From positions 110,236,001 through 110,300,000 of the forward strand of contig NC_043002.1 of assembly GCF_006345805.1 (NCBI RefSeq): a stretch of 64,000 nt of DNA, in the 5' to 3' direction. Positions 18,411 to 34,112 of this stretch are shown in pieces. Under the pieces are notes generated by a model. That model saw only the letters and a program-made list of their open reading frames with translations, made no database searches and was not told the DNA's origin. Each line of letters starts with the position of its first letter. Position 1 is the first letter of the stretch. The DNA is from Octopus sinensis. Its lineage: Eukaryota. Both the position numbers and the translations under genes were made by a program.

Positions 18411-18789
18411 TCTTTATATATAAAAGTGAGGTTGTGTGCTGTCTGTCTCCTACAATTTAGATTCCTAACTACTCCCACATTTGCGGTGCGTTTAACCAAA
18501 TGGGGTATCTTATAGTCGTGATTCATATCGAGCCCTTCTGGGTATTAGAGCGATCTACAATGAGTCTACAATTTAAAAAAAAATTTACCATCAATTTTTC
18601 ACATTTTTAATGCATTTTTTGGCATATATAAGGGAAGTAACTCTCTAAAAATTATTATTAAATCTCAGAAGTAACACCCCCCACTTTGTGGTTAGCCAAT
18701 TTGAGATGGCTGTTATACTTTACATCTCTAAAAATGCTTATATAGTTATTTCCCTTACAAACCCGAGCAACGCCGGGCGATACTGCTAG
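18411..18789 (+). mobile_element. Non-autonomous Helitron (variant with captured fragment)
   Basis: TC...hairpin-CTAG ends, plus an extra segment gtggttagccaatttgagatggct. Confidence 0.85.
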
Positions 18790-23928: not shown

Positions 23929-24012
23929 CAGGGATGGCCTTAAGCCAATTAGACCAATTGCTTCCAATCGGGCCCCACACTCAAGGAGGCCACATTCCCA
24001 AGGCTGGCCCTG
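23929..24012. mobile_element. 84-bp hAT-type MITE
   Basis: TIRs cagggatggcctt / aaggctggccctg with 8-bp TSD atcaatgg (23921-23928, 24013-24020). Confidence 0.75.
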
Positions 24013-24081
24013 ATCAATGGAAGATGAAACATATCCAGCAGTATTGGTCCAATTCCAGCTATAGTATTTTTTAGAGCCATA

Positions 24082-24471
24082 TCTTTATATATAAAAGTCA
24101 AGTTGTGTGTCTGTCTCCTACGATTTAGATTCCTAACTACTCCCACATTTTGCGGTGCAGTTTAACCAAAACCGTGTATCTTATAGTCGTGATTCATATC
24201 GAGCCCTTCTGGGTATTAGCGCGCGTCTACGATGAGTCTACGATTTTAAAAAAAATTTACCATCCTTTTTTTCCATTTTAATGCATTTTTTTCGCTATTA
24301 TATAAGGGAAGTAACTCTCTAAAAATGTCTACGATGAGTCAACGATTTAAAAAAAAATTTACCATAATTTTTTTCCATTTTTTTGCTATTTTTTGGCTAT
24401 AACTCTCTAAAAATGCTTATATAGTTATTTCCCGAGCAACAAACCCGAGCAACGCCGGGCGATACTACTAG
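24082..24471 (+). mobile_element. Non-autonomous Helitron
   Basis: A|TC...hairpin-CTAG|T ends. Confidence 0.85.
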
Positions 24472-24699
24472 TATCTATATGAAATGCTTCTTTAAAGAAA
24501 ATACCATGGCTTTCAGCAGTATATCCACGTTAAGTAAGATATGCAGAATGCTTTCGACATATCTTTCTATAAACACTTGCCAATTACATCTTTCTTTGAA
24601 CAATTAAACTATTTCTTTCTTCTTGAGTTTTTACCTGAAGCTAATCATACTTATTGAAAAACTAATGATGTTGAGCACGACATTGTTATTGAATCTTAA

Positions 24700-24918
24700 C
24701 CCTTTCGTTACCAACCCGGCTGAACCAGCTCTGGTTCTGTAGTACAAATGTCTTGTTTTCATAAGTCTTGAATTAAAATCTTCTACCAAACCTTAGTCAC
24801 AATTTATGTCCTAACACTAGTTGAATGATAACTAAGTTATTTTACTAAATTCTTTGTTATATTTAAAGTAATTGAAAGAAACACAGAGCATCTCAAAATA
24901 AACACAGTAACAAAAGGA
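24700..24918. mobile_element. piggyBac-type MITE (right end decayed)
   Basis: TTAA|CCCTTTCGTTAC left end and partial inverse gtaacaaaagg at ~24907. Confidence 0.5.
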
Positions 24919-25343
24919 AATGTAACCATAGCAATTCTGTTTTTGTTGTGTTTGTGAAGAATAAATTCGATATTTTGCATCAAATTGATGTGCAGTGAGT
25001 CACTATATTTTTGCCTCAAGGAAACATTCTAACAATGTTGCACCAGCATTTTAAAATATATACTGATCATACAAAATCTTATCAATCAGGCAATGGTCTT
25101 CATGGGTCACAATCTGCACTTTCTTAATGTGATCATCACCAGGGATGGATTTATAGGGGGTAAAGGGAGCAACTGTTCTGGGACCCCTGATAGATACTGG
25201 TGTGTGTGTGTGTGGGGGGGGTCCCTGCTATGAAGAGTATACAACACTCAGCACAGGAAAGTCCTACCTCCCAGCAATCAGGCAAGAAGAGGCTCTCTTT
25301 CAGCATAGAAAGATATTTTGCCTTCTTAACGTAATGAATTCTC

Positions 25344-25927
25344 GAAAAACTGTATGCAAGCAATAATAATCTCTGAACGAGATGTAAACAGTAACTGCAC
25401 AACAATGTGAGGTATACTAGCCATCTCAATATGGCTAACCACTAAGTGTGGGTGTTACTGTAGCTTGTAGCCCCAGGAGATCATCGTCTCCAGCTGGCTT
25501 TAGGCACACTTTCTGTGCCCTTATGGTATTTGCAAAGGGAGGTCATCCCTCCTTCGTCAACCTAGGTGACATGCACGGACTGCAGTTTCTAGGTATTTGC
25601 CTGTCTTAAACGTACAGCAGTCACTGGATGTCGATGAAGGGAGTCCCAATGCAAATCCTTATATCGTTTTTCCAGTAACTTTTCGTCACTGATCTCGAAA
25701 AACTGTATGCAAGCAATAATAAATCTCTGAACGAGATGTAAACTGCACGACAATGTAAAGTATACTAGCCATCTCAATATGGCTAGCCACTAAGGGTGGG
25801 TGTTACCATAAGGGCACAGGAAGTGTGCCTAAGCCAGCTGGAGACGATGATCTCCTGGGTCTACAAGCTACAGTAACACACACCCTTAGTGGTTAGCCAT
25901 ATTGAGATGGCTAGTATACCTTACATT
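25344..25927 (-). mobile_element. Retrozyme-like insertion: ~1.3 tandem monomers (353-bp period) plus terminal inversion
   Basis: 13-bp TSD gtaatgaattctc (25331-25343, 25928-25940). Degenerate hammerhead at 25572-25616. 25803-25927 is an inverted copy of ~25403-25530. Confidence 0.7.
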
Positions 25928-26125
25928 GTAATGAATTCTCTTTTATGGTAAATAACCATAGATTTTGTCACTTTAGAGACACCAATTAATTCAATTAAAA
26001 AACAGTTCCAAAGCAGCTTTTGGGACAACAACAGAGAAAAGAGAAACACCAGAACACTCCTGAAAATGTTTGTATGTATATGTGAGTGTGTGTGTGTGTG
26101 TGCGTGTGTGTGTGTGTGTGTGTGT

Positions 26126-26161
<36 letters not shown>

Positions 26162-26223
26162 GTGTGTGTGTGTGTGTGTAAGTATGAGTGTAAATAAGGA
26201 GATTGATAGAAAGAAGTTATTGT

Positions 26224-26438
26224 CTCTCTTTACTCTCTTTTACTTGTTTCAGTCATTTGACTGCGGCCATGCTGGAGCACCGCCTTTAGTCGAGCAAATC
26301 GACCCTGGGACTTATTCTTTGTAAGCCCAGTACTTATTCTATCGGCCTCTTTTTGCCGAACCGCTAAGTGATGGGGACGTAAACACACCAGCATCGGTTG
26401 TCAAGCAATGCTAGGGGGACAAACACAGACACACAAAC

Positions 26439-26478
<40 letters not shown>

Positions 26479-26648
26479 ATATATACGACAGGCTTCTTTC
26501 AGTTTCCGTCTACCAAATCCACTCACAAGGCATTGGTCGGCCCGGGGCTATAGCAGAAGACACTTGCCCAAGATGCCACGCAGTGGGACTGAACCCGGAA
26601 CCATGTGGTTGGTTAGCAAGCTATTTACTACACAGCCACTCCTGCACC
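26224..26648 (-). mobile_element. tRNA-derived SINE family 1
   Basis: Full-length family match. Confidence 0.9.
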
Positions 26649-27151
26649 CAGGTCAAATTCCTTCTTTCAACATAAGATTGAGCAATGACCTTGGCTTGAC
26701 TGCTTGTAGTTAAAGGCATACACATACACACACATGCACACATACACCCCCACACACACATACATACATGCACGCATACATTGCTCCTTCTAAACTCAAT
26801 TATTTCAGTGAGGCATTGAAAACTGGTCTTATTTTATGAAACAAGTAAAGAATATTGTTCCATAATGAATTTTGAATTTAGTATAAAAAGCACTTTTTTT
26901 CTGCTTTAGAATTATTACAAACATGTTCAAGTATTTTTCATTAAATCAAACATTTTTTCTTATTTTTTTCCTATACTTTACATCATTTTGTCAAACACTT
27001 GAAATTACTATATGGGAGTGGGGCAAAATGAATAATTTCCAATTTCTTGTTATTTTTTCCCTTTCTATTTTCAACCATTACATTGCAAGTATTGCATTCC
27101 TATTTTTGTACCTTTACATCATCTGTTGGAGTAACAATTGGTCATGTAGTC

Positions 27152-27652
27152 GTTGAAGTTGAGAGAGTTTGAAACAGGTGACAAGAATTTTTTCCTCAAC
27201 TTTCACCTAATTATAATTGAGGAGCCAATAAAGTATCTGGGTAATTTTTGGTGTTTAACCACCAATATTCTTTTCTCTGTTGGATTTTACATCGATTTTT
27301 TTCTGCGCTTTTATCTGATTTGATAATTTTCAAGTTTCAGAAAAAAAAAATGTCTAAATTGGGGCAAAATAACTAATTTTAATAATTTTGATAATTTTCT
27401 TTTCTCTTTAACTGCATAGTGCATAAATATATCAGGAAGAGAGCCACTCCAGCAGCTCATGAAGAAGCTACAGAGAATATTTTATGTTGCATTTTTAGAT
27501 TTTGTCAAGTTTCATTAATTTCATATAATGGTTAAACACCAAAGATTATCCTGATATTTTAATAGCTACCGCAATTACAGTCAGGTCAAAGTTGAGGTAA
27601 AATTTCCTGAAAAACAAAATTGCTTGTTACCTTTCAAACTCTCAACTTCAAC
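27152..27652. repeat. Old foldback/MITE-like element with ~110-bp imperfect inverted arms
   Basis: gttgaagttgagagagtttgaaa...ggtgtttaacca versus tggttaaacacc...tttcaaactctcaacttcaac. Confidence 0.6.
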
Positions 27653-28591
27653 ATCACCAACTTTTACCTTATTTTATCTTATTCATTTTTACTCCACCTA
27701 AATTTGTCTCAAAGAGAACAGTGATAATTTTCTGATATAGTGTTCTGAATATGTTATAGGTTTTACTGCATTTAGAGAAGGCCTTTACTTAGCTGATATT
27801 CTTTTGGCAAGGTAGTAAAGATTTTTGAAAAATATATTTTCTTCAGAGTCAAAAATGCAGTAAATATTACTCATTGTGCTCCACTTGCCCCACTACTGGA
27901 AACTGGAAAAGCAGACTTTCAGAAAAGCTGTTTGAATTTCCCTGTTTTTGTTGAGATATTCCCTTCTTTTCTCATGCATTGCAAGACAATGAAGAAGAAT
28001 TTTAAAAGAAGAATTTTAAAAATCCTTGTCTTTTAAGTGTTGGTATCTCCACCCACCCTTCTCGAACACACGCACACACACTCATCATACCTTTGGAACA
28101 GCAACAACCACTTTTATCTCTTTTTGTAATTTTCTGTCATTTTATCACGTTCCACATGCTGAAATATTTGTAACTTGCATTAAAAGAAAAAAAATCTTAC
28201 CCCCTCTTCCCTCCTTTATTGCACTTTTCACAATGAAGGAAAAGTCAAACACTGCAAGTGGATGTGTGAAAAACAAAATTCAAATTTTGAAAAATATATC
28301 TATAAAGTAACATTTTCAGTCATTTATTTAAATTTTCTCTCATCGAATTCAATTACATGAAATAAATGGGTTTTGAGATTTAAATTTGGTAAATTTAAAT
28401 CCAGCCCTGATCATCATTCATTGTCATAAAAGGGTTCAAGATTTGAAATTATCTTCAGTTATTCAGTGGATGTTCTCTGTCTAAAGTGTACTACTTGTGA
28501 CATTGTTTACCAGTAAAAATGATTTTGCCCATGGCTGAAGGTCAAGTTTACCCTTTCACATCACTGCAGTCATGTATATAGTGTGCAGGTA

Positions 28592-28993
28592 TACTCTTTT
28601 ACTTGTTTCAGTCATTTGACTGTGGCCATGCTAGAGCACCGCCTTTAGTCGAGCAAATCGACCCTGGGATTTATTCTTTGTAAGCCCAGTACTTATTCTA
28701 TCAGTCTCTTTTGCCGAACCACTAAGTGACGGGGACGTAAACACACCAGCATCGGTTGTCAAGCAATGCTAGGGGGACAAACACAGACTCACAAACATAT
28801 ACACACACACTTATATATATATGCCTATATACGACAGGCTTCTTTTAGTTTCCATCTACCAAATCCACTCACAAGGCATTGGTCGGCCCGGGGCTATAGC
28901 AGAAGACACTTGCCCAAATGCCACGCAGTGGGACTGAACCCGGAACCATGTGGTTGGTTAGCAAGCTACTTACCACACAGCCACTCCTGCACC
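28592..28993 (-). mobile_element. tRNA-derived SINE family 1
   Basis: Full-length family match. Confidence 0.9.
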
Positions 28994-29170
28994 TATATAA
29001 GTCCATTTCCATTAGAGAGGAAGGAGTCCTTAATTTTTCTTGTGTTACTGTTTATAAGTGTAAATCATAATATTTAGACACTGAAGCATGATTGTACAAT
29101 TATTCTGTTTTCATAAATATGATGACATCAGTCAACTAAAATCATTCCCAAATTGGAAGCATACACTCAC

Positions 29171-29288
29171 CAACACAGTTTCTTTGCTACAAGCTGGTAT
29201 CCTGATTTACAGGAACATTTGTAGCTTCCAACTGAATTGAGACAGTTATGATGGCAGCCACCATTTCCTTTAGCACATTCATTTATAT
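29171..29288 (-). CDS. Calcium-binding EGF exon, type A (118 nt as assembled; 2 nt shorter than its paralogues)
   Basis: ttttccag|AT ATA AAT GAA TGT...|gtgagt encodes (D)[33 protein letters not shown]...C, matching the cbEGF consensus. Confidence 0.75.
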
Positions 29289-29417
29289 CTGGAAAATTAT
29301 CATAGGAGAGAAAATTTTATTAAAATAAAACATGCACCTATATTTACATACAAATGCATTTACTTGAATTTTGAATACATATATTATCTACTATATATAT
29401 ATATTCACACACAAATG

Positions 29418-29450
<33 letters not shown>

Positions 29451-29613
29451 TATACCGGAGTAAACAAATAAATGTGAAACAAGGTGGAAAAAAGAGTACT
29501 CAAATACCAGTGGTAGAGTAATATGCTTTATTTAAAGCAGCAGAAAATTCAACAAAACCTGTTACTCTGAGTTTCCCGTTGCCATTCATCGGACAGTTTT
29601 TGCTAGAATATAT

Positions 29614-30110
29614 ATCTCTTATTATAAAAGGCAGATTTTATCTGCCTCCCTTTGGGAGTTATACAAATCTACAATATAGGATTTCTTCAATTACAATTTA
29701 CCTAGCATTTTTAAGAGTACAATGCATCGCGTCATGCCAGGTCCAGTTTTTAAAATTTAAACTCCAATTAAGCAAAATTTACAGAAAACTCACATTCTGG
29801 TGTGTGTGTCAAATGCTTTTCTTAGTCTGGTTTACACCACACGCAAACGCACACACACAGTGGGCAACGAATAAAATGAAAGTAATTGACTTACTGTAGT
29901 GAGTGATTCTTTCACTCTGCCTCCCACTTCCTCTTTCCACACATGGACACGCAAATATATAAATAAAATTGTAAGCTAACGTGCGTGTGTGTGAGTGGGT
30001 GTGTGTGGGTGTGCGCGCGTGTGTATGTATGAGGGTGCGTGTGTGTGTGTGCGTGTGCGTGAGTGTTTGACAGGAAAGTTTTTTACGACGAATATAACAC
30101 CTATATCCAA
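29614..30110 (+). mobile_element. Probable Helitron 5' portion (different family)
   Basis: atctcttattataaaaggcag start is typical of Helitron TC-TATATAAA-like 5' ends. No 3' end found. Confidence 0.35.
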
Positions 30111-30119
30111 GTAGCAGAA

Positions 30120-30385
30120 AGATAAGACAGTAAGGTGTGATTTGAGGGAGATTTGGCTGCTATTTCTACCATGTCTAGCTGCCATGTAGGGGTCTCCCTC
30201 ATAGGCTCATACATACATATATACATAGATAAGACAGTAAGGTGTGATTTGGGGGAAATTTGGCTGCTATTTCTACCAGGTCTAGCTACCATGTAGAGGT
30301 CCCTCTCATTGGCTCATATATATATACATACATAAGACAGTAAGGTGTGATTTGAGGGAGATTTGGCTGCTGTTTCTACCAGGTC
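30120..30385. repeat. Tandem triplication of a ~106-bp unit
   Basis: ataagacagtaaggtgtgatttgagggagatttggctgc recurs at ~30122, ~30228 and ~30332. Confidence 0.85.
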
Positions 30386-30751
30386 TGTTAGGCCTTCTCA
30401 TGTAAACTCAAGCTTTCTCATGCCTTGAACATAAGACCAAAGCAGAGAATGTATTCTTTTATTCTTCTGCTTTTTCCAGCCATTGGTCTGTGGCCATGCT
30501 GGGGCAATGCCTTGAAGAATTGTAGTTTAATGAATCAACTCCACTTTTATTTTTGTAAGCATTGTACTTATTCTATCTGTTTCCTTTGTCAAACCACTAG
30601 GTGACAGGGATGTAAACAAACCAACATTCATTGTCAAGCAGTGGTGGAGGACAATCACAAGCACAGACACGCACACACACACACATACATGCATACACAT
30701 ATACACACATACATACATACATAGATATATATATATGTGTGTATATATATA

Positions 30752-31075
30752 TTGCAGCGTGGAAGGTGTTTGTAAGCCATTTAAGAAACACACAAAAACC
30801 GTTACATTCACTTCAACATTTAAATTTAATTTGCCAAAATATTTTCGTCGCTTTGAGACCGCGACCTGTTCACTGACAAAAATATCGTGCTAACAGGTCG
30901 CGGTCTCAAAGCGATGAAAATATTTTGACAAATTAAATTTAAATGTTGAAGTGAATCTAACGGTTTTTGTGTGTTTCTTAAATGGCTTATAAACACCTTC
31001 AACGCTGCAACTGTTTTCGTTCCAGCACACGATCTCAGATCAAGTCACTTGCTATGCAAGTACATCTCTGTAACT
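30752..31075. mobile_element. PLE-type repeat with inverted duplication; hammerhead motif with G3:C8 swap at 30831-30879 (minus)
   Basis: Minus strand reads ttgtca-GTGAACA-g-gtcgc-ggtctcaaa-gcgac-GAAA-atat-TT-tggcaa. Related copies at 32753-33045 and 50367-50661. Confidence 0.65.
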
Positions 31076-31174
31076 ATATATATATTTATATATATATATA
31101 TATATGTATATTGGTAAAAACAGTAAGATAACAAAAGAAAGAAAGAGACCTCAATATTATGTAAATAGAGGAAA

Positions 31175-31569
31175 TCTTTATATATAAAAGTGAGGTTGTG
31201 TGTCTGTCTCCTACGATTTAGATTCCTAACTACTCCCACATTTTGCGGTGCAGTTTAACCAAAACCGGGTATCTTATAGTCGTGATTCATATCGAGACCG
31301 TCTGGGTATTAGCGCGCGTCTACGATGAGTCTACGATTTAAAAAAAAATTTACCATCAATTTTTCCCATTTTTAATCCATTTTTGACATATATAAGGGAA
31401 GTAACTCTCTAAAATGTATTATTAAATCTCAGAACGTAAAAAGCTACAGTAACACCCCTTCCCCTTTGTGGTTAGCCATATTGAGATGGCTATTATACTT
31501 TACATCTCTAAAAATGCTTATATAATTATTTCCCTTACAAACCCGAGCAACGCCGGGCGATACTGCTAG
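31175..31569 (+). mobile_element. Non-autonomous Helitron (variant with captured retrozyme-like fragment)
   Basis: TC...hairpin-CTAG ends. 31438-31505 resembles the minus strand of the 31918-32291 element. Confidence 0.85.
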
Positions 31570-31917
31570 TATATTCTAAAGGCGGTGCTCCAGCTTAGCC
31601 GCAGTCAAATGACTGAAACAAGTAAAAGAGTAAAAAGAGTATATATATATACAAACACACGCATACTTATAAATTAATGTTGATAATGAACTCAAGTTTC
31701 ATCTAACAATTGATTAATAGACCAATAGGTGAAATTTGAAGTCTCAGTCAAATGTAATTCCAATAAATTTGACCTTACTAAAAATATTGAGTTCCATTTC
31801 AGCAAGTGCTCCATTGTTACCGTTAATATTTCTTTAAAATAACATTAAAAAATCAATGTGTGCAAACCCCCTCCCCCCATACACACACAGAATTTATCAA
31901 AAATAAACTACACTATG

Positions 31918-32291
31918 ACATTAATAAATCTCCGAACGAGATGTAAACAGTAACCGCTCGACAACGTAAAGTGTACTAGCCATCTCAATGTGGTTAGCCA
32001 CTGGGGGTGGGTGTTACTGAAGCTTTTAGCCCCAGGAGATCATCGTCTCCAGCTGGCTTTAGACACACATTCTGTGCCCTTCTGATATTCGCAAAGGGAG
32101 GTCATCCCTCTCTCGTAAACCTAAGTGAAACGTATGGACTATAGTTTCAAGGTTTTTGCCTCTCGTCAACGTACGGTAATCACCAGTTTTCGATAAAGAG
32201 AGACCTGTTTGTGAATATCTATTTAATGTTTTTCCCAGCATCCACTGTCACTGATTTAGAAAAACTGTCTGAAAGCATTTATAAATCTCCG
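31918..32291 (-). mobile_element. Retrozyme-like monomer insertion (357-nt period, terminal redundancy)
   Basis: 12-bp TSD aactacactatg (31906-31917, 32292-32303). ataaatctccgaac is repeated at 31924 and 32281. Contains a hammerhead. Confidence 0.75.
32131..32175 (-). ncRNA. Minimal type I hammerhead ribozyme (C3U variant)
   Basis: cgtacg-TTGACGA-gagg-caaaaa-cctt-GAAA-ctatag-TC-catacg, with palindromic stem III ACTATAGT. Confidence 0.6.
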
Positions 32292-32752
32292 AACTACACT
32301 ATGGGAGAACCATAATCCAACTTTATCTTCCTTCAGATCATTTGTATAGTTTTGTCAAGAGAATTACCATATAGGACTTAGAACTCGTATTTCTGGCTGT
32401 CATGTTTTATGTTACTATTTTTGGCCACCAAAGGGGCACACTACTTTCATGATTTAGTTGTTATCCACTCATTGCAAATAGTAGACAGGCAGATGAAAAT
32501 TTAACATGCCTTTCATCTTTCTCGGAGAATTTTTTCATTCAAAGAATTTTAAAATGTTTCTTAATGTTAACAGAGTCGTTAAATATTGTAAGACACTTAG
32601 GTGAGGGTTAAGTCTGCTGTGAGAGGAGTATAATGAAATGATGTGACTTTTCCACATAATTACTGATATAATGTAAGCAATTCTTCATTAGTTTGTACTT
32701 ATAGTTGGTGATAATTTGGCTTATTTTCAATATTTTATTATTAGTAACAATT

Positions 32753-33045
32753 ATTGTAGTGTGGAAGGTGTTTATAAGCCATTTAAGAAACACACAAAAA
32801 CCATTAGATTCACTTCAACATTTAAATTTGATTTGCCTAAATATTTTCGTCACTTTGAGACTACAACCAGTTCACTGACAAAATTCCATGCAGCAAATAT
32901 TTTGGCAAATTAAATTTAAATGTTGAAGTGAATCTAATGGTTTTTGTGTGTTTCTTAAATGGCTTATAGACACCTTCCATGCTGCAATTGTTTTTGTTCC
33001 ATCACACGATCTCAAATCAGGTCACTTGCTATGCAAGTACAACTC
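32753..33045. mobile_element. PLE-type repeat with inverted duplication (G3:C8 hammerhead family, decayed)
   Basis: Homologous to 30752-31075. Confidence 0.65.
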
Positions 33046-33729
33046 CATAACAATTATTGTATCTTGCAGATATACACAATTATTGGGCTCCCTAGTCTAT
33101 GGCACTTCCATCTGATACACAAATGTGTAGCGGTCTCTGATATCCTCACTGTTTGAGAGACATGGCAGGAATGATCTCGTTTGAGATTACAGCCATCTTT
33201 GGCCGAGTTGTTCCTGTTGTGACCACTGACCTGATTGGTTGACATGTGGCGCAATTTGTCTCTACTTATTCTGCGCCACTGGCCAAAGCCAACCAATCAC
33301 GGCCTGTATTAGATGTAGGATAGTTTTTTGGTACATTTAAAGATAAAACAACACATCTTATATGTCAGCAAATATAGTACACACATGCATACACACATGC
33401 ATGCACACACACTCACACGTGTGTGTGAGTGTGTGTATCTGGATGGAGTGTGTGGAAGAGCAAGATCCAGGAAGATGTGGAATGAAGTGGTGACAGGTGA
33501 TCTCAGGGCCTTGAACTTGGAGAAAATGACAGTATATGGCTCTCCAGAAGACCCACCTACCTTGGTGAAACTGAGATTCTGGAAACACAGTGATTATATG
33601 TATGCACAACTTACTCCATGCCATTCTCACCTTAAGACATTCCTACCACTCATCATATCTCTAAATGAAAATCTTCTACTGTTATATCAAATATGAACAG
33701 AACTGCTTACTCCATCAACCTTTCCTTGA

Positions 33730-34112
33730 TGGAAGCACTCCGTCGGTTACGACGACGAGGGTTCCGGTTGATCCGATCAACGGAACAGCCTGCTTGTGAA
33801 ATTAATGTGTAAGTGGCTGAGCACTCCACAGGCACGTGTACCCTTAAAGTAGTTCTCGGGGATATTCAGCGTGACACAGAGAGTGACAAGGCCAGCCCTT
33901 TGAAATACAGGTGCAACAGAAACATGAAGTAAGAGTGAGAGAAAGTTGTGGTGAAAGAGTACAGCAGGGATCACCACCATCCCTGCCGGAGCCTCGTGGA
34001 GCTTTTAGGTGTTTTAGCTCAATAAACACTCACAACGCCCGGTCTGGGAATGGAAACCGCGATCCTACGACCGCGAGTCCGCTGCCCTAACCACTAGGCC
34101 ATTGCACCTCCA
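33730..34112 (-). mobile_element. tRNA-derived SINE family 2
   Basis: Full-length family match. Flanking cctttccttgat is duplicated (TSD-like). Confidence 0.9.

What the first reader, a model, noticed from the sequence alone, without database searches (positions are those of the whole stretch)
31906..32303. ~355-nt circularly permuted, TSD-flanked element with a hammerhead: non-LTR retrozyme-like family
Seen: a 12-bp TSD flanks one 357-nt unit plus a short terminal redundancy. The minus strand has a minimal type I hammerhead (32131-32175; UUGACGA core, palindromic stem III ACUAUAGU, GUC site) and several further hairpins (ggagacgatgatctcc, agggatgacctccct). A second copy at 25.3 kb starts at a slightly different point in the same unit and runs for more than one monomer. 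Known: animal non-LTR retrozymes are small tandem hammerhead repeats copied from circular RNAs. Inference: this is a retrozyme family reverse-transcribed around a circular template.
Basis: partly seen in the sequence, partly recalled or inferred. Interest (0 to 1): 0.72.

Follow-up and report, generated by a model that had tools for sequence, protein, structure and literature searches.

The report
Hammerhead retrozyme copy, Penelope-style insertion
This is an aged copy of an abundant, protein-free mobile repeat that carries a hammerhead (self-cutting RNA) motif with an unusual core letter. Copies of the family begin at two fixed points rather than at scattered ones, so it was likely pasted in by the enzyme of a Penelope-type jumping gene, which makes it a real but fairly ordinary member of a known class.

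Summary
A 12-bp duplication (AACTACACTATG) flanks a 357-nt unit plus 17-20 nt of a second round. A complete type-I hammerhead topology lies on the minus strand at 32131-32175. A second copy lies at 25.3 kb.

The family has at least 2,803 first-look candidates in its 2.72-Gb animal genome. It is non-coding and 43% G+C, makes 12-14-bp duplications and often lands in (TA)n.

The hammerhead helices covary. The core is UUGAC(G/A)A in all 46 copies read, not CUGANGA. Rfam scores it 15 bits, below the 34-bit threshold. A younger 352-nt sister family keeps CUGAUGA in 35 of 38 copies.

The permutation points are not scattered. Of 135 cDNA-start ends in two families, 127 lie at unit position ~1 or ~46. 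Of 57 multi-segment insertions, 53 are two arms that both read inward. This matches the Penelope-like-element footprint: partial tandem, inverted 5' copy, a ~45-nt tail, (TA)n bias.

The template must exceed one unit, but circle versus multimer is not settled. No partner element was found in 32 Penelope loci. No RNA evidence was obtained.

Earlier AI notes of this scan describe the same system on other DNA of this genome. Verdict: a new member of a known kind (animal non-LTR retrozyme).

The parts
31906..31917 (.). Left target-site duplication, AACTACACTATG
   Evidence: Read directly; identical to 32292-32303.
31918..32291 (-). Family A element. It holds one 357-nt unit (U1 = 31918) plus the first 17-20 nt of a second round. 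The RNA sense (hammerhead sense) is the minus strand.
   Evidence: U1->U20, 377 nt; family matches. A near-identical copy lies 177 kb upstream inside a duplicated segment: L001 and L002 differ at 4 of 3,374 positions.
32292..32303 (.). Right target-site duplication, AACTACACTATG
32131..32175 (-). Type-I hammerhead-like motif: helix I CGUACG/CAUACG, core UUGACGA, helix II GAGG/CCUU, GAAA, palindromic helix III ACUAUAGU, and C17. The predicted cut lies between 32137 and 32136 (U220|U219).
   Evidence: Rfam alignment over the full model, 15 bits. Covariation in 35 distinct family copies.
31918..31962 (-). Tail segment U1-U45. It is present at the U1 end of insertions and absent from inverted arms, which begin at U46.
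32035..32050 (-). Hairpin GGAGA-TCATCG-TCTCC inside the block that is best conserved between families A and B
   Evidence: circular fold; conservation profile.
32095..32109 (-). Hairpin AGGGA-GGTCA-TCCCT
   Evidence: Sequence read. In the circular fold these bases pair with a distant stretch, so the local hairpin is not predicted.
25344..25806 (-). Older copy, main arm U342->U100 (463 nt, 1.3 units, 80% identical to the window unit). Its hammerhead core has decayed to UUUAAGA.
25804..25929 (+). Inverted arm of the older copy, U170->U44, ending at the U46-type site
   Evidence: (inverted repeats I3, I8).
25331..25343 (.). Target-site duplication of the older copy, GTAATGAATTCTC. The second copy of it lies at 25928-25940.
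31416..31504 (-). Two-arm mini copy of 89 nt. Read on the minus strand it runs U48->U110 and is then joined to an arm that ends at U1. It is flanked by ATTTT(T)AGAGA. It is embedded in another repeat, which was later copied with it (paralogue at about 18650-18725).

Best explanation
The element is an aged copy of a non-coding, hammerhead-bearing repeat family that was likely inserted by target-primed reverse transcription of its hammerhead-sense RNA by the enzyme of a Penelope-like element (PLE). That would make it an animal non-LTR retrozyme.

**Shown.**
- The family is abundant, dispersed and non-coding, and it is flanked by 12-14-bp duplications.
- Reading inward from an insertion end, the DNA almost always begins at unit position ~1 or ~46, always in the sense complementary to the hammerhead strand.
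- Half or more of the insertions are two arms that face each other, one from each start site.
- Arms from either site can exceed one unit.
- The hammerhead helices covary.

**Inferred.**
- Two staggered nicks 12-13 bp apart each prime cDNA synthesis on the same kind of RNA, at two defined sites 45 nt apart. The two cDNAs are then joined.
- The 45 nt between the sites is the 'tail' seen at one end of PLE insertions.
- The window copy is the simple one-arm case: started at U1, copied 1.05 units, then joined.
- The RNA template is longer than a unit. It is either a monomeric circle made by hammerhead cleavage and ligation, or a multimeric transcript.
- The U3 core would cleave weakly. The change to A8 in part of the family restores the 3-8 pair, which suggests the ribozyme stayed under selection.
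For: **Family.** There are 2,803 first-look candidates, 40 scored, giving 94 matches at 71-100% identity. The longest stop-free run in a trimer is 62 aa. G+C is 43%.

**Duplications.** Twelve family A insertions have 12-14-bp duplications outside microsatellites, plus the window copy by eye. About 8 more lie in (TA)n.

**Start sites.** Three samples gave 82 insertions.

| Sample | cDNA-start ends | U1-type | U46-type | Other |
|---|---|---|---|---|
| Family A | 46 | 29 | 15 | 2 |
| Family B, sample 1 | 42 | 26 | 14 | 2 |
| Family B, sample 2 | 47 | 22 | 21 | 4 |

The two site classes cover about 11% of the unit. The 29 far ends scatter from U8 to U319.

**Arm orientation.** Of 57 multi-segment insertions, 53 are exactly '+-' (both arms read inward) and 1 is '-+'.

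**Template length.** Arms longer than one unit arise from both sites. Examples are 996 and 1,416 nt in L015 and L016, and 582, 529 and 498 nt from U46.

**Hammerhead.**
- Rfam aligns the whole model.
- 96.4% of pair cells are paired, against 19-51% when the partner is slid. Five pairs have changes on both sides, and 0 of 500 shuffles reach the covariation score.
- Stem III switches between two palindromes, CUAUAG and CUGCAG.

**Sister family B.** It is 66-73% identical (BLAST hits 73-74%, full-length alignment 66%), has 2,100 candidates and copies 95-99% alike. It keeps CUGAUGA in 35 of 38 copies, and the nucleotide before the cut is C, A or U, never G. Rfam gives 26.6 bits, E 2.4e-4. It has the same two start sites.

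**PLEs in this genome.**
- GIY-YIG has 5,029 first-look candidates, with open frames up to 781-883 aa.
- The L038 frame holds RVT_1 plus GIY-YIG.
- Of 13 aligned PLE 3' modules, 12 read UUGAUAAGG and one UUGAUAAAG, so the U3/A8 core UUGAUAA is in all 13. Twelve end TTTTTTACAA next to TA repeats; the thirteenth (L053) diverges before that end.

**Literature.**
- PLE insertions form partial tandems, an inverted 5'-truncated copy and a 30-40-bp tail at one end, with (TA)n bias in the Naiad clade and hammerheads in the pLTRs of canonical PLEs (PMC8557442, passages).
- U3-A8 covariation occurs in PLE hammerheads (PMC4209133, passages).
- Animal retrozymes are proposed to be non-autonomous PLE derivatives (10.64898/2026.07.22.740005, sections 14 and 16).
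Against: - **No sequence link to a PLE.** None of 32 PLE loci resembles the unit (12 loci; 20). The single hit, in L049, is an independent family B insertion in a (TA)n tract.
- **Different end sequences.** The sampled PLE 3' ends (TTTTTTACAA) do not resemble the retrozyme start sites. One inverted PLE copy (L054) includes its full 3' end, so the 45-nt tail was not reproduced on PLEs themselves.
- **Weak ribozyme support for this family.** Position 3 of the core is U in every family A copy. Rfam scores the window motif 15 bits against a 34-bit threshold, and even family B stays below it. Cleavage is untested.
- **No RNA evidence** was obtained.
- **Biased samples.** They are the best-scoring 30 loci per search, with 40 candidates scored out of 900 to 2,800.
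- **PLE duplication length** was not measured for comparison.
Confidence: 0.75

Rival explanations
1. A monomeric circular RNA is reverse-transcribed from arbitrary points, LINE-like, giving copies whose start and end points are scattered round the unit.
For: Copies exceed one unit. One contig of a run that is only guessed to be RNA shows a 'goes back 357' joint. Animal retrozymes are known to form circular RNAs in other species (PMC7229834, passages).
Against: Of 135 start ends, 127 sit at two positions. Arm orientation is fixed in 53 of 57 multi-segment insertions. There is no poly(A) or simple-repeat tail at the 3' end.
Confidence: 0.04
2. Same enzyme and same start sites, but the template is specifically a covalently closed monomeric circle, made by hammerhead cleavage and ligation and copied round and round from internal start sites.
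For: - The unit is seamlessly continuous across the U357/U1 junction in all tandem copies.
- Arms from both sites pass the predicted cleavage site (U219/220) and exceed one unit.
- No arm end clusters at U219/220.
- In family B, rounds of one insertion differ by 2.4% (pooled) and arms by 2.4%, against 3.9% between insertions.
- A conserved stem-loop lies just 3' of the U1 start in the RNA sense, so the template seems to continue past the start (1 covarying pair).
Against: - Rounds within one insertion are not identical: 2-7% differences in L016, graded with distance.
- A homogeneous tandem master transcript predicts the same data.
- No circular RNA was observed.
- The U3 core of family A may cleave poorly.
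Confidence: 0.4
3. The hammerhead of this family is a dead relic. The C3-to-U change abolished cleavage, and family A spread (or decayed) without self-cleavage, as a plain non-autonomous PLE-type repeat copied from linear read-through transcripts.
For: U3 is present in 46 of 46 copies. Rfam gives 15 bits against 26.6 for the canonical sister. Family A copies are older than family B: 89-95% identical to the window unit, against 95-98% to the query for family B.
Against: - Helices I, II and III keep pairing through compensatory changes that arose within family A.
- G8 became A8 in 14 of 35 distinct copies, turning U.G into U-A.
- U3-A8 is a reported natural PLE hammerhead variant (PMC4209133).
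- All 13 PLE 3' modules of this genome carry the U3/A8 core UUGAUAA.
Confidence: 0.3
4. It is a tRNA- or 5S-type SINE moved by a LINE, or a satellite or foldback DNA element, and the hammerhead resemblance is incidental.
For: The element is short, abundant and non-coding. Inverted arms superficially resemble foldback elements.
Against: - ARAGORN finds no tRNA-like gene in 24000-34000.
- There is no poly(A) or microsatellite tail.
- The fixed end is the 3' end of the hammerhead-sense RNA, not a pol III start.
- The arms are asymmetric (U1 against U46), and 12-14-bp duplications flank dispersed copies.
- The hammerhead helices covary.
Confidence: 0.03

Closest known systems
Metazoan non-LTR retrozymes (Cervera & de la Pena 2020, PMC7229834; passages read)
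   Same: - Type-I hammerhead with helix I of 6 bp, helix II of 4 bp, and helix III of 2 bp capped by a 4-nt palindromic loop.
- Unit within the 150-450-bp range.
- Low G+C (43%).
- No LTR and no open reading frame.
- Duplications larger than 4 bp.
- Dimers to multimers occur.
- PLEs are present in the same genome.
   Different: - The core has U3 instead of C3 in every copy of this family.
- Most copies are 1-1.7 units or two-arm structures rather than long arrays.
- Circular RNA and cleavage are not shown here.
- The paper does not describe fixed start sites in the passages I read.
Insertion architecture of endonuclease-positive Penelope-like elements (Craig et al. 2021, PMC8557442; passages read)
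   Same: - Partial tandem (pseudo-LTR-like).
- Inverted 5'-truncated copy at the 5' end.
- An extension at only one end (30-40 bp reported there, about 45 nt here).
- (TA)n insertion bias.
- Hammerhead in the repeat.
   Different: - No RT/GIY-YIG frame in the element.
- No sequence similarity to 32 sampled PLE loci of this genome.
- The paper attributes the tail to endonuclease-mediated resolution. The two-start-site reading is my inference.
Animal retrozymes as non-autonomous PLE derivatives (Li, Clavereau & Pollet 2026, bioRxiv 10.64898/2026.07.22.740005; abstract and sections 14 and 16 read)
   Same: Retrozymes co-occur with PLEs, and a SINE/LINE-like dependence is proposed.
   Different: Their evidence is sequence relatedness of Xenopus retrozymes to PLE pLTRs, which I did not find here. 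They state that invertebrates were not examined and that the mechanism is open.
Minimal PLE hammerheads with U3-A8 core covariation (Cervera & de la Pena 2014, PMC4209133; passages read)
   Same: U3 is paired with A8 in part of family A and in all 13 aligned PLE 3' modules of this genome. Helix III is palindromic, implying action as a dimer.
   Different: Family A has canonical-size helices I and II rather than the long helix II of the minimal PLE hammerheads. Of 35 distinct copies, 21 keep G8, which gives a U.G wobble.
Twin priming of LINE-1 (recalled from memory, not read here)
   Same: Both nicked target strands prime cDNA on one RNA, giving an inverted 5' segment.
   Different: In L1 the second priming site is variable. 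Here it is fixed at U46 in two families.

Membership tests
Metazoan non-LTR retrozyme | A type-I hammerhead motif in each unit | tested here: met
   Rfam aligns the full model topology. Helices covary in 35 distinct copies. The motif is present in all 46 unit copies read.
Metazoan non-LTR retrozyme | Short (150-450 bp) non-coding unit in head-to-tail copies, with low G+C and no LTR, PBS or PPT | tested here: met
   The unit is 357 nt and occurs at up to 4.0 units (L016) and 2.8 units (L015). The longest stop-free run is 62 aa. G+C is 43%. PBS and PPT were not searched for specifically.
Metazoan non-LTR retrozyme | Dispersed copies with target-site duplications longer than 4 bp | tested here: met
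   Duplications of 12-14 bp in 12 insertions, plus the window copy.
Metazoan non-LTR retrozyme | Self-cleavage and expression as a small circular RNA | not testable with these tools
   No run on record as RNA was listed. Only contigs of runs guessed to be RNA could be laid.
PLE-type (Penelope-like) insertion / non-autonomous PLE derivative | Partial tandem plus an inverted 5'-truncated copy at the 5' end | tested here: met
   Of 57 multi-segment insertions, 53 are '+-'. Arms of more than one unit are seen.
PLE-type (Penelope-like) insertion / non-autonomous PLE derivative | A 30-40-bp tail present at one end only | tested here: met
   U1-U45 is present at the U1 end and absent from arms that start at U46: 50 U46-type ends against 77 U1-type ends. 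The length is about 45 nt, slightly above the published range.
PLE-type (Penelope-like) insertion / non-autonomous PLE derivative | Microsatellite, (TA)n, insertion bias | tested here: met
   About 8 of 30 family A insertions and most of 26 family B insertions lie in (TA)n.
PLE-type (Penelope-like) insertion / non-autonomous PLE derivative | Sequence relatedness to the pLTR or 3' end of an autonomous PLE in the same genome | tested here: not met
   No similarity in 32 PLE loci. Only a small part of 5,029 GIY-YIG candidates was sampled.
Hammerhead ribozyme type I (Rfam RF00163) | Score at or above the curated gathering threshold | tested here: not met
   The window motif scores 15.0 bits and the family B copy 26.6 bits, against a threshold of 34. 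There is no hit at gathering level in the window.
Hammerhead ribozyme type I (Rfam RF00163) | Conserved core C3-U4-G5-A6-N7-G8-A9 ... G12-A13-A14 ... H17 | tested here: not met
   Position 3 is U in 46 of 46 copies. Position 8 is G or A. All other core positions match the consensus. Sister family B meets the feature in 35 of 38 copies.
Hammerhead ribozyme type I (Rfam RF00163) | Three helices supported by covariation | tested here: met
   helix I has 3 pairs with changes on both sides and helix II has 1. The palindromic centre of helix III switches AU to GC in 11 of 35 distinct copies.
SINE mobilised by a LINE | A pol III-type head (tRNA, 5S or 7SL) and an A-rich or simple-repeat 3' tail | tested here: not met
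   ARAGORN finds none. There is no tail at either end.

The most novel reading that the evidence does not exclude
A Penelope-type reverse transcriptase starts cDNA at two sequence-defined internal sites, 45 nt apart, on a covalently closed hammerhead-processed RNA circle. It does so from both nicked target strands at once, which would be a telomerase-like internal-template mode. This would explain the long-unexplained tandem/inverted/tail structure of PLE insertions. The U3.G8 to U3-A8 change would show that the ribozyme is kept by selection because the circle is the transposition intermediate.
Probability: 0.3. Interest if true: 0.65.

Novelty: new member of a known kind. Interest (0 to 1): 0.38.

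Why it matters
How animal retrozymes are copied back into DNA is an open question. So is how Penelope-like elements produce their odd tandem/inverted/tail insertions (PMC8557442; 10.64898/2026.07.22.740005).

This family and its younger sister give a clean footprint: two fixed start sites, arms that face inward, and arms longer than a unit. That footprint turns the question into a testable model. The family also offers a natural series of ribozyme cores for cleavage assays: C3-G8, U3.G8 and U3-A8.

The window copy itself is an old, probably inert insertion with no sign of a host function.

Tried and rejected
- **Rfam on large stretches.** Scans of the whole window (gathering level) and of 24000-34000 (E up to 10) list no hammerhead. 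Only the 111-nt scan shows it.
- **RNA evidence.** No RNA holder was listed. Contigs of four runs that are only guessed to be RNA carry pieces of the family and one 'goes back 357' joint. This cannot separate DNA from RNA, or tandem from circle. The uneven depth there is explained by blocks shared with sister families and by a mini copy carried inside another repeat.
- **Partner search.** BLAST of the unit against 12 and then 20 PLE loci, plus a motif search for the 3' end, found nothing.
- **Arm length as a test for a circle.** In the first sample, arms cluster just above one unit. That is ascertainment bias. A sample keyed on U1-75 shows many arms shorter than a unit.
- **Circular fold.** It gives -95.7 kcal/mol, z = -2.5 against 60 mononucleotide shuffles. 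The opposite strand gives z = -2.3, so the result is not specific. The first attempt timed out.
- **Differences between rounds or arms of one insertion.** They are 0-8% in family A. In family B they are 2.4% within against 3.9% between insertions. This fits one source per insertion but does not separate a circle from a homogeneous tandem master.
- **Palindromic arm junctions.** By eye, about 10 of about 50 two-arm copies have arms that stop within 20 nt of the same unit position, where about 12% would be expected. This is not convincing.
- **Consensus fold around the U1 start.** It gives 20 pairs, of which only 1 covaries. It remains a lead only.
- **Literature.** The search 'octopus' plus 'hammerhead ribozyme' found 5 papers (4 listed), none describing such a family by title or abstract. 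An Octopus vulgaris repeat paper (PMC13282606, passages) does not mention it. I did not establish the organism myself.
- **Activity of U3 variants.** A search for C3-G8 and U3-A8 found only PMC4209133 and one unrelated paper. What I say about the activity of U3 variants is otherwise recalled.
Full report
**1. Observation**

- AACTACACTATG occurs at 31906-31917 and 32292-32303. It brackets 31918-32291, which is a 357-nt unit followed by the first 17-20 nt of the same unit. The redundant 20 nt contain two mismatches, and 3 nt at the right edge are ambiguous.
- On the minus strand, 32131-32175 reads CGUACG-UUGACGA-GAGG-CAAAAA-CCUU-GAAA-CUAUAG-UC/CAUACG.
- In a 111-nt scan, Rfam's only match is Hammerhead_1, aligned over the whole 45-position model at exactly these coordinates. 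The score is 15.0 bits against a gathering score of 34 (E 0.37). Larger scans do not list it.
- The copy at 25.3 kb (25344-25929) begins 15 nt earlier in the unit and runs 1.3 units.

**2. The family**

- The window lies in a 2.72-Gb genome of 13,516 contigs.
- The unit has 2,803 first-look candidates. Forty were scored, giving 94 matches at 71-100% identity on many contigs.
- One 100% match 177 kb upstream lies in a duplicated segment: L001 and L002 differ at 4 of 3,374 positions. It is not a separate insertion.
- The unit has no frame longer than 62 codons, even read as a trimer.
- It is 43% G+C and holds no tRNA-like gene.

**3. The hammerhead**

- All 46 unit copies read have U at core position 3. 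The core is UUGACGA or UUGACAA.
- I tested the three helices, the 3-8 core pair and the palindromic centre of helix III on 42 copies (35 distinct):
  - 96.4% of cells pair, against 19-51% when the 3' partners are slid by 1-3 columns.
  - Five pairs carry changes on both sides.
  - None of 500 shuffles reaches the observed covariation score.
- Helix III switches between two palindromes, CUAUAG and CUGCAG. This is expected for type-I hammerheads that act as dimers (PMC4209133, passages).
- The 3-8 pair is U.G in 21 distinct copies and U-A in 14.
- U3-A8 in place of C3-G8 is a reported variant of PLE hammerheads (same paper).
- The motif is therefore a structurally maintained hammerhead with a non-canonical core. 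Whether it cleaves is untested. From memory, not from a call, C3 substitutions lower activity and a restored 3-8 pair recovers part of it.

**4. Insertion architecture**

I placed each copy on unit coordinates (U1 = window 31918).

*Duplications and targets.*
- Twelve family A insertions have 12-14-bp duplications outside microsatellites, as does the window copy.
- About eight more lie inside (TA)n.
- In eight, the script found none.

I call an end a cDNA start if the DNA read 5'->3' from the flank into the element is complementary to the hammerhead strand.

| Sample | Insertions | Start ends | U341-U11 | U43-U52 | Elsewhere |
|---|---|---|---|---|---|
| Family A | 30 | 46 | 29 | 15 | 2 |

The 14 opposite ends scatter from U12 to U286.

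*Two-arm copies.* Fifteen insertions consist of two arms that both read inward, and none has the reverse order. The older copy at 25.3 kb is of this type. So is an 89-nt mini copy at 31416-31504, which sits inside another repeat and was propagated with it.

*The window element* is the simple case: one arm, started at U1, 1.05 units long.

**5. A sister family and the Penelope-like elements**

While sampling PLE loci, I found a related element at 73% identity inserted in a (TA)n tract (L049).

*Family B.*
- Its unit is 352 nt. It has 2,100 first-look candidates, and copies are 95-99% alike.
- It keeps the canonical CUGAUGA core in 35 of 38 copies. The nucleotide before the cut is C, A or U, never G.
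- It scores 26.6 bits on Hammerhead_1 (E 2.4e-4).
- It has the same two start sites, although the sequence around U46 differs: 26 + 14 of 42 start ends in one sample, and 22 + 21 of 47 in a second sample keyed only on U1-75.

*Both families together.*
- 127 of 135 start ends lie at the two sites.
- 53 of 57 multi-segment insertions are inward-facing pairs, and one is the reverse.
- Arms from either site can exceed one unit.
- Conservation between the two families peaks at U1-30, U101-160, the hammerhead core and U331-350.

*PLEs in the genome.*
- GIY-YIG has 5,029 first-look candidates, with open frames up to 781-883 aa.
- One frame holds RVT_1 plus a C-terminal GIY-YIG domain.
- All 13 aligned 3' modules carry a hammerhead-like U3/A8 core, UUGAUAA. 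Twelve end TTTTTTACAA next to TA repeats, and L053 diverges before that end.
- None of the 32 PLE loci shares sequence with the unit.

**6. Mechanism**

*Shown.*
- The RNA that was copied has the hammerhead polarity.
- Copying starts at two defined positions 45 nt apart.
- Both target strands can carry a start.
- The copied template is longer than a unit.
- The target is AT-rich, with a 12-13-bp stagger.

*Inferred.*
- Insertion is by target-primed reverse transcription by a PLE enzyme.
- The two cDNAs are joined in the middle.
- U1-U45 is the 'tail' seen at one end of PLE insertions.

*Open: circle or multimer.*
- For a circle:
  - The unit junction is seamless in all tandem copies.
  - No arm end clusters at the cleavage site.
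  - Arms and rounds of one family B insertion are more alike (2.4% differences) than different insertions (3.9%).
  - A conserved stem-loop lies just beyond the U1 start in the RNA sense (one covarying pair).
- Against using any of this as proof:
  - A homogeneous tandem master gives the same data.
  - Rounds of one insertion are not identical.
  - No RNA data could be had.

**7. Comparison with what is known**

- The element meets the descriptive features of metazoan non-LTR retrozymes (PMC7229834, passages).
- It matches the insertion footprint described for endonuclease-positive PLEs: partial tandems, an inverted 5'-truncated copy, a 30-40-bp tail at one end, and (TA)n bias (PMC8557442, passages).
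- A 2026 preprint argues from vertebrate data that animal retrozymes are non-autonomous PLE derivatives. It states that invertebrates and the mechanism remain open (10.64898/2026.07.22.740005, sections 14 and 16).
- Three membership features fail here:
  - the Rfam gathering score;
  - the canonical C3;
  - sequence relatedness to a PLE of the same genome.

**8. Earlier notes of this scan**

- After I had formed this reading (stated), look-ups showed that other agents had described retrozyme-like families on other DNA of this same genome. They report units of 349, 352, 488-492, 534 and about 600 nt, with two fixed end registers and (TA)n targets.
- They also describe a 356-nt unit in another genome, which they call octopus.
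- These are unchecked AI notes. I reproduced the two-register, inward-arm footprint myself on two families, but I did not test the organism name.
- New to this window's family are the fixed U3 core with the G8/A8 split and its relation to the canonical 352-nt sister.

**9. Verdict**

- The finding is real and correctly classed as retrozyme-like.
- The 'circularly permuted' description and the expected CUGANGA consensus are wrong for this family.
- The best-supported mechanism is PLE-type two-site priming on a template longer than a unit.
- It is a new member of a known kind. Its interest is moderate, because the footprint makes an open mechanistic question testable.

Noticed in passing
L047:5343-5460, and the equivalent 3' modules of L043, L045, L046, L048, L051-L054, L056 and L060: The Penelope-like elements of this genome (RT plus GIY-YIG frames of 780-883 aa) all carry a hammerhead-like motif with a U3/A8 core: UUGAUAAGG in 12 of the 13 aligned 3' modules and UUGAUAAAG in one. 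It lies about 75 nt before a 3' end TTTTTTACAA (12 of 13; L053 diverges) that abuts TA repeats. In upstream tandem copies the junction is followed by a palindrome, CTCGTATACGAG.
   Followed up: partly
window 31416-31504 and about 18650-18725: An 89-nt two-arm mini copy of the family (U48->U110 joined to an arm ending at U1, flanked by ATTTT(T)AGAGA) sits inside another repeat. That repeat was later copied, so the mini copy occurs twice in the window with homologous flanks.
   Followed up: partly
alignment A2, columns 98-132; in unit terms about U347-U313 of the RNA sense: A stem-loop (UUUUUC...CAGUGAC/GUxxCUGGGAAAAA) is conserved between families A and B, with one covarying pair. In a multimer or circle it lies immediately 3' of the U1 start site, so it is a candidate recognition signal for the reverse transcriptase.
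   Followed up: partly
L015:1470-1520 (also L027 and L072:1130-1160): Some insertions begin with a short aborted piece (about U4-U29) followed by a restart at U1, as if the first cDNA start slipped or re-initiated.
   Followed up: no
L098-L100 (G000:C15:13700002-13703428) and L118/L119 (G000:C7:33059850-33063393): Whole two-arm family B insertions are themselves repeated head to tail, at periods of about 929 and 469 nt. These are DNA-level duplications of complete insertions.
   Followed up: no
window 30752-31010 and 32746-32995: A 119-nt inverted repeat (96% complementary, 21-nt spacer) has a second copy 2 kb away. It looks like a hairpin-forming, MITE-like repeat. It gives a sub-threshold match to the microRNA precursor family MIR8675 (43.6 bits against a threshold of 90.8).
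   Followed up: no
window 26233-26650 and 28592-28993: Two copies of a roughly 400-nt repeat lie 2.35 kb apart (89-96% identical over the matching blocks). Each contains a stretch that looks like the reverse complement of a tRNA B-box region, so it is probably a tRNA-derived SINE. It is flanked by CA/TA microsatellites.
   Followed up: no
G000:C6:110089296-110092669 (L002) against window 30418-33791 (L001): The 3.4 kb around the element recurs 177 kb upstream with 4 differences. This is either a recent segmental duplication or an assembly duplicate.
   Followed up: partly
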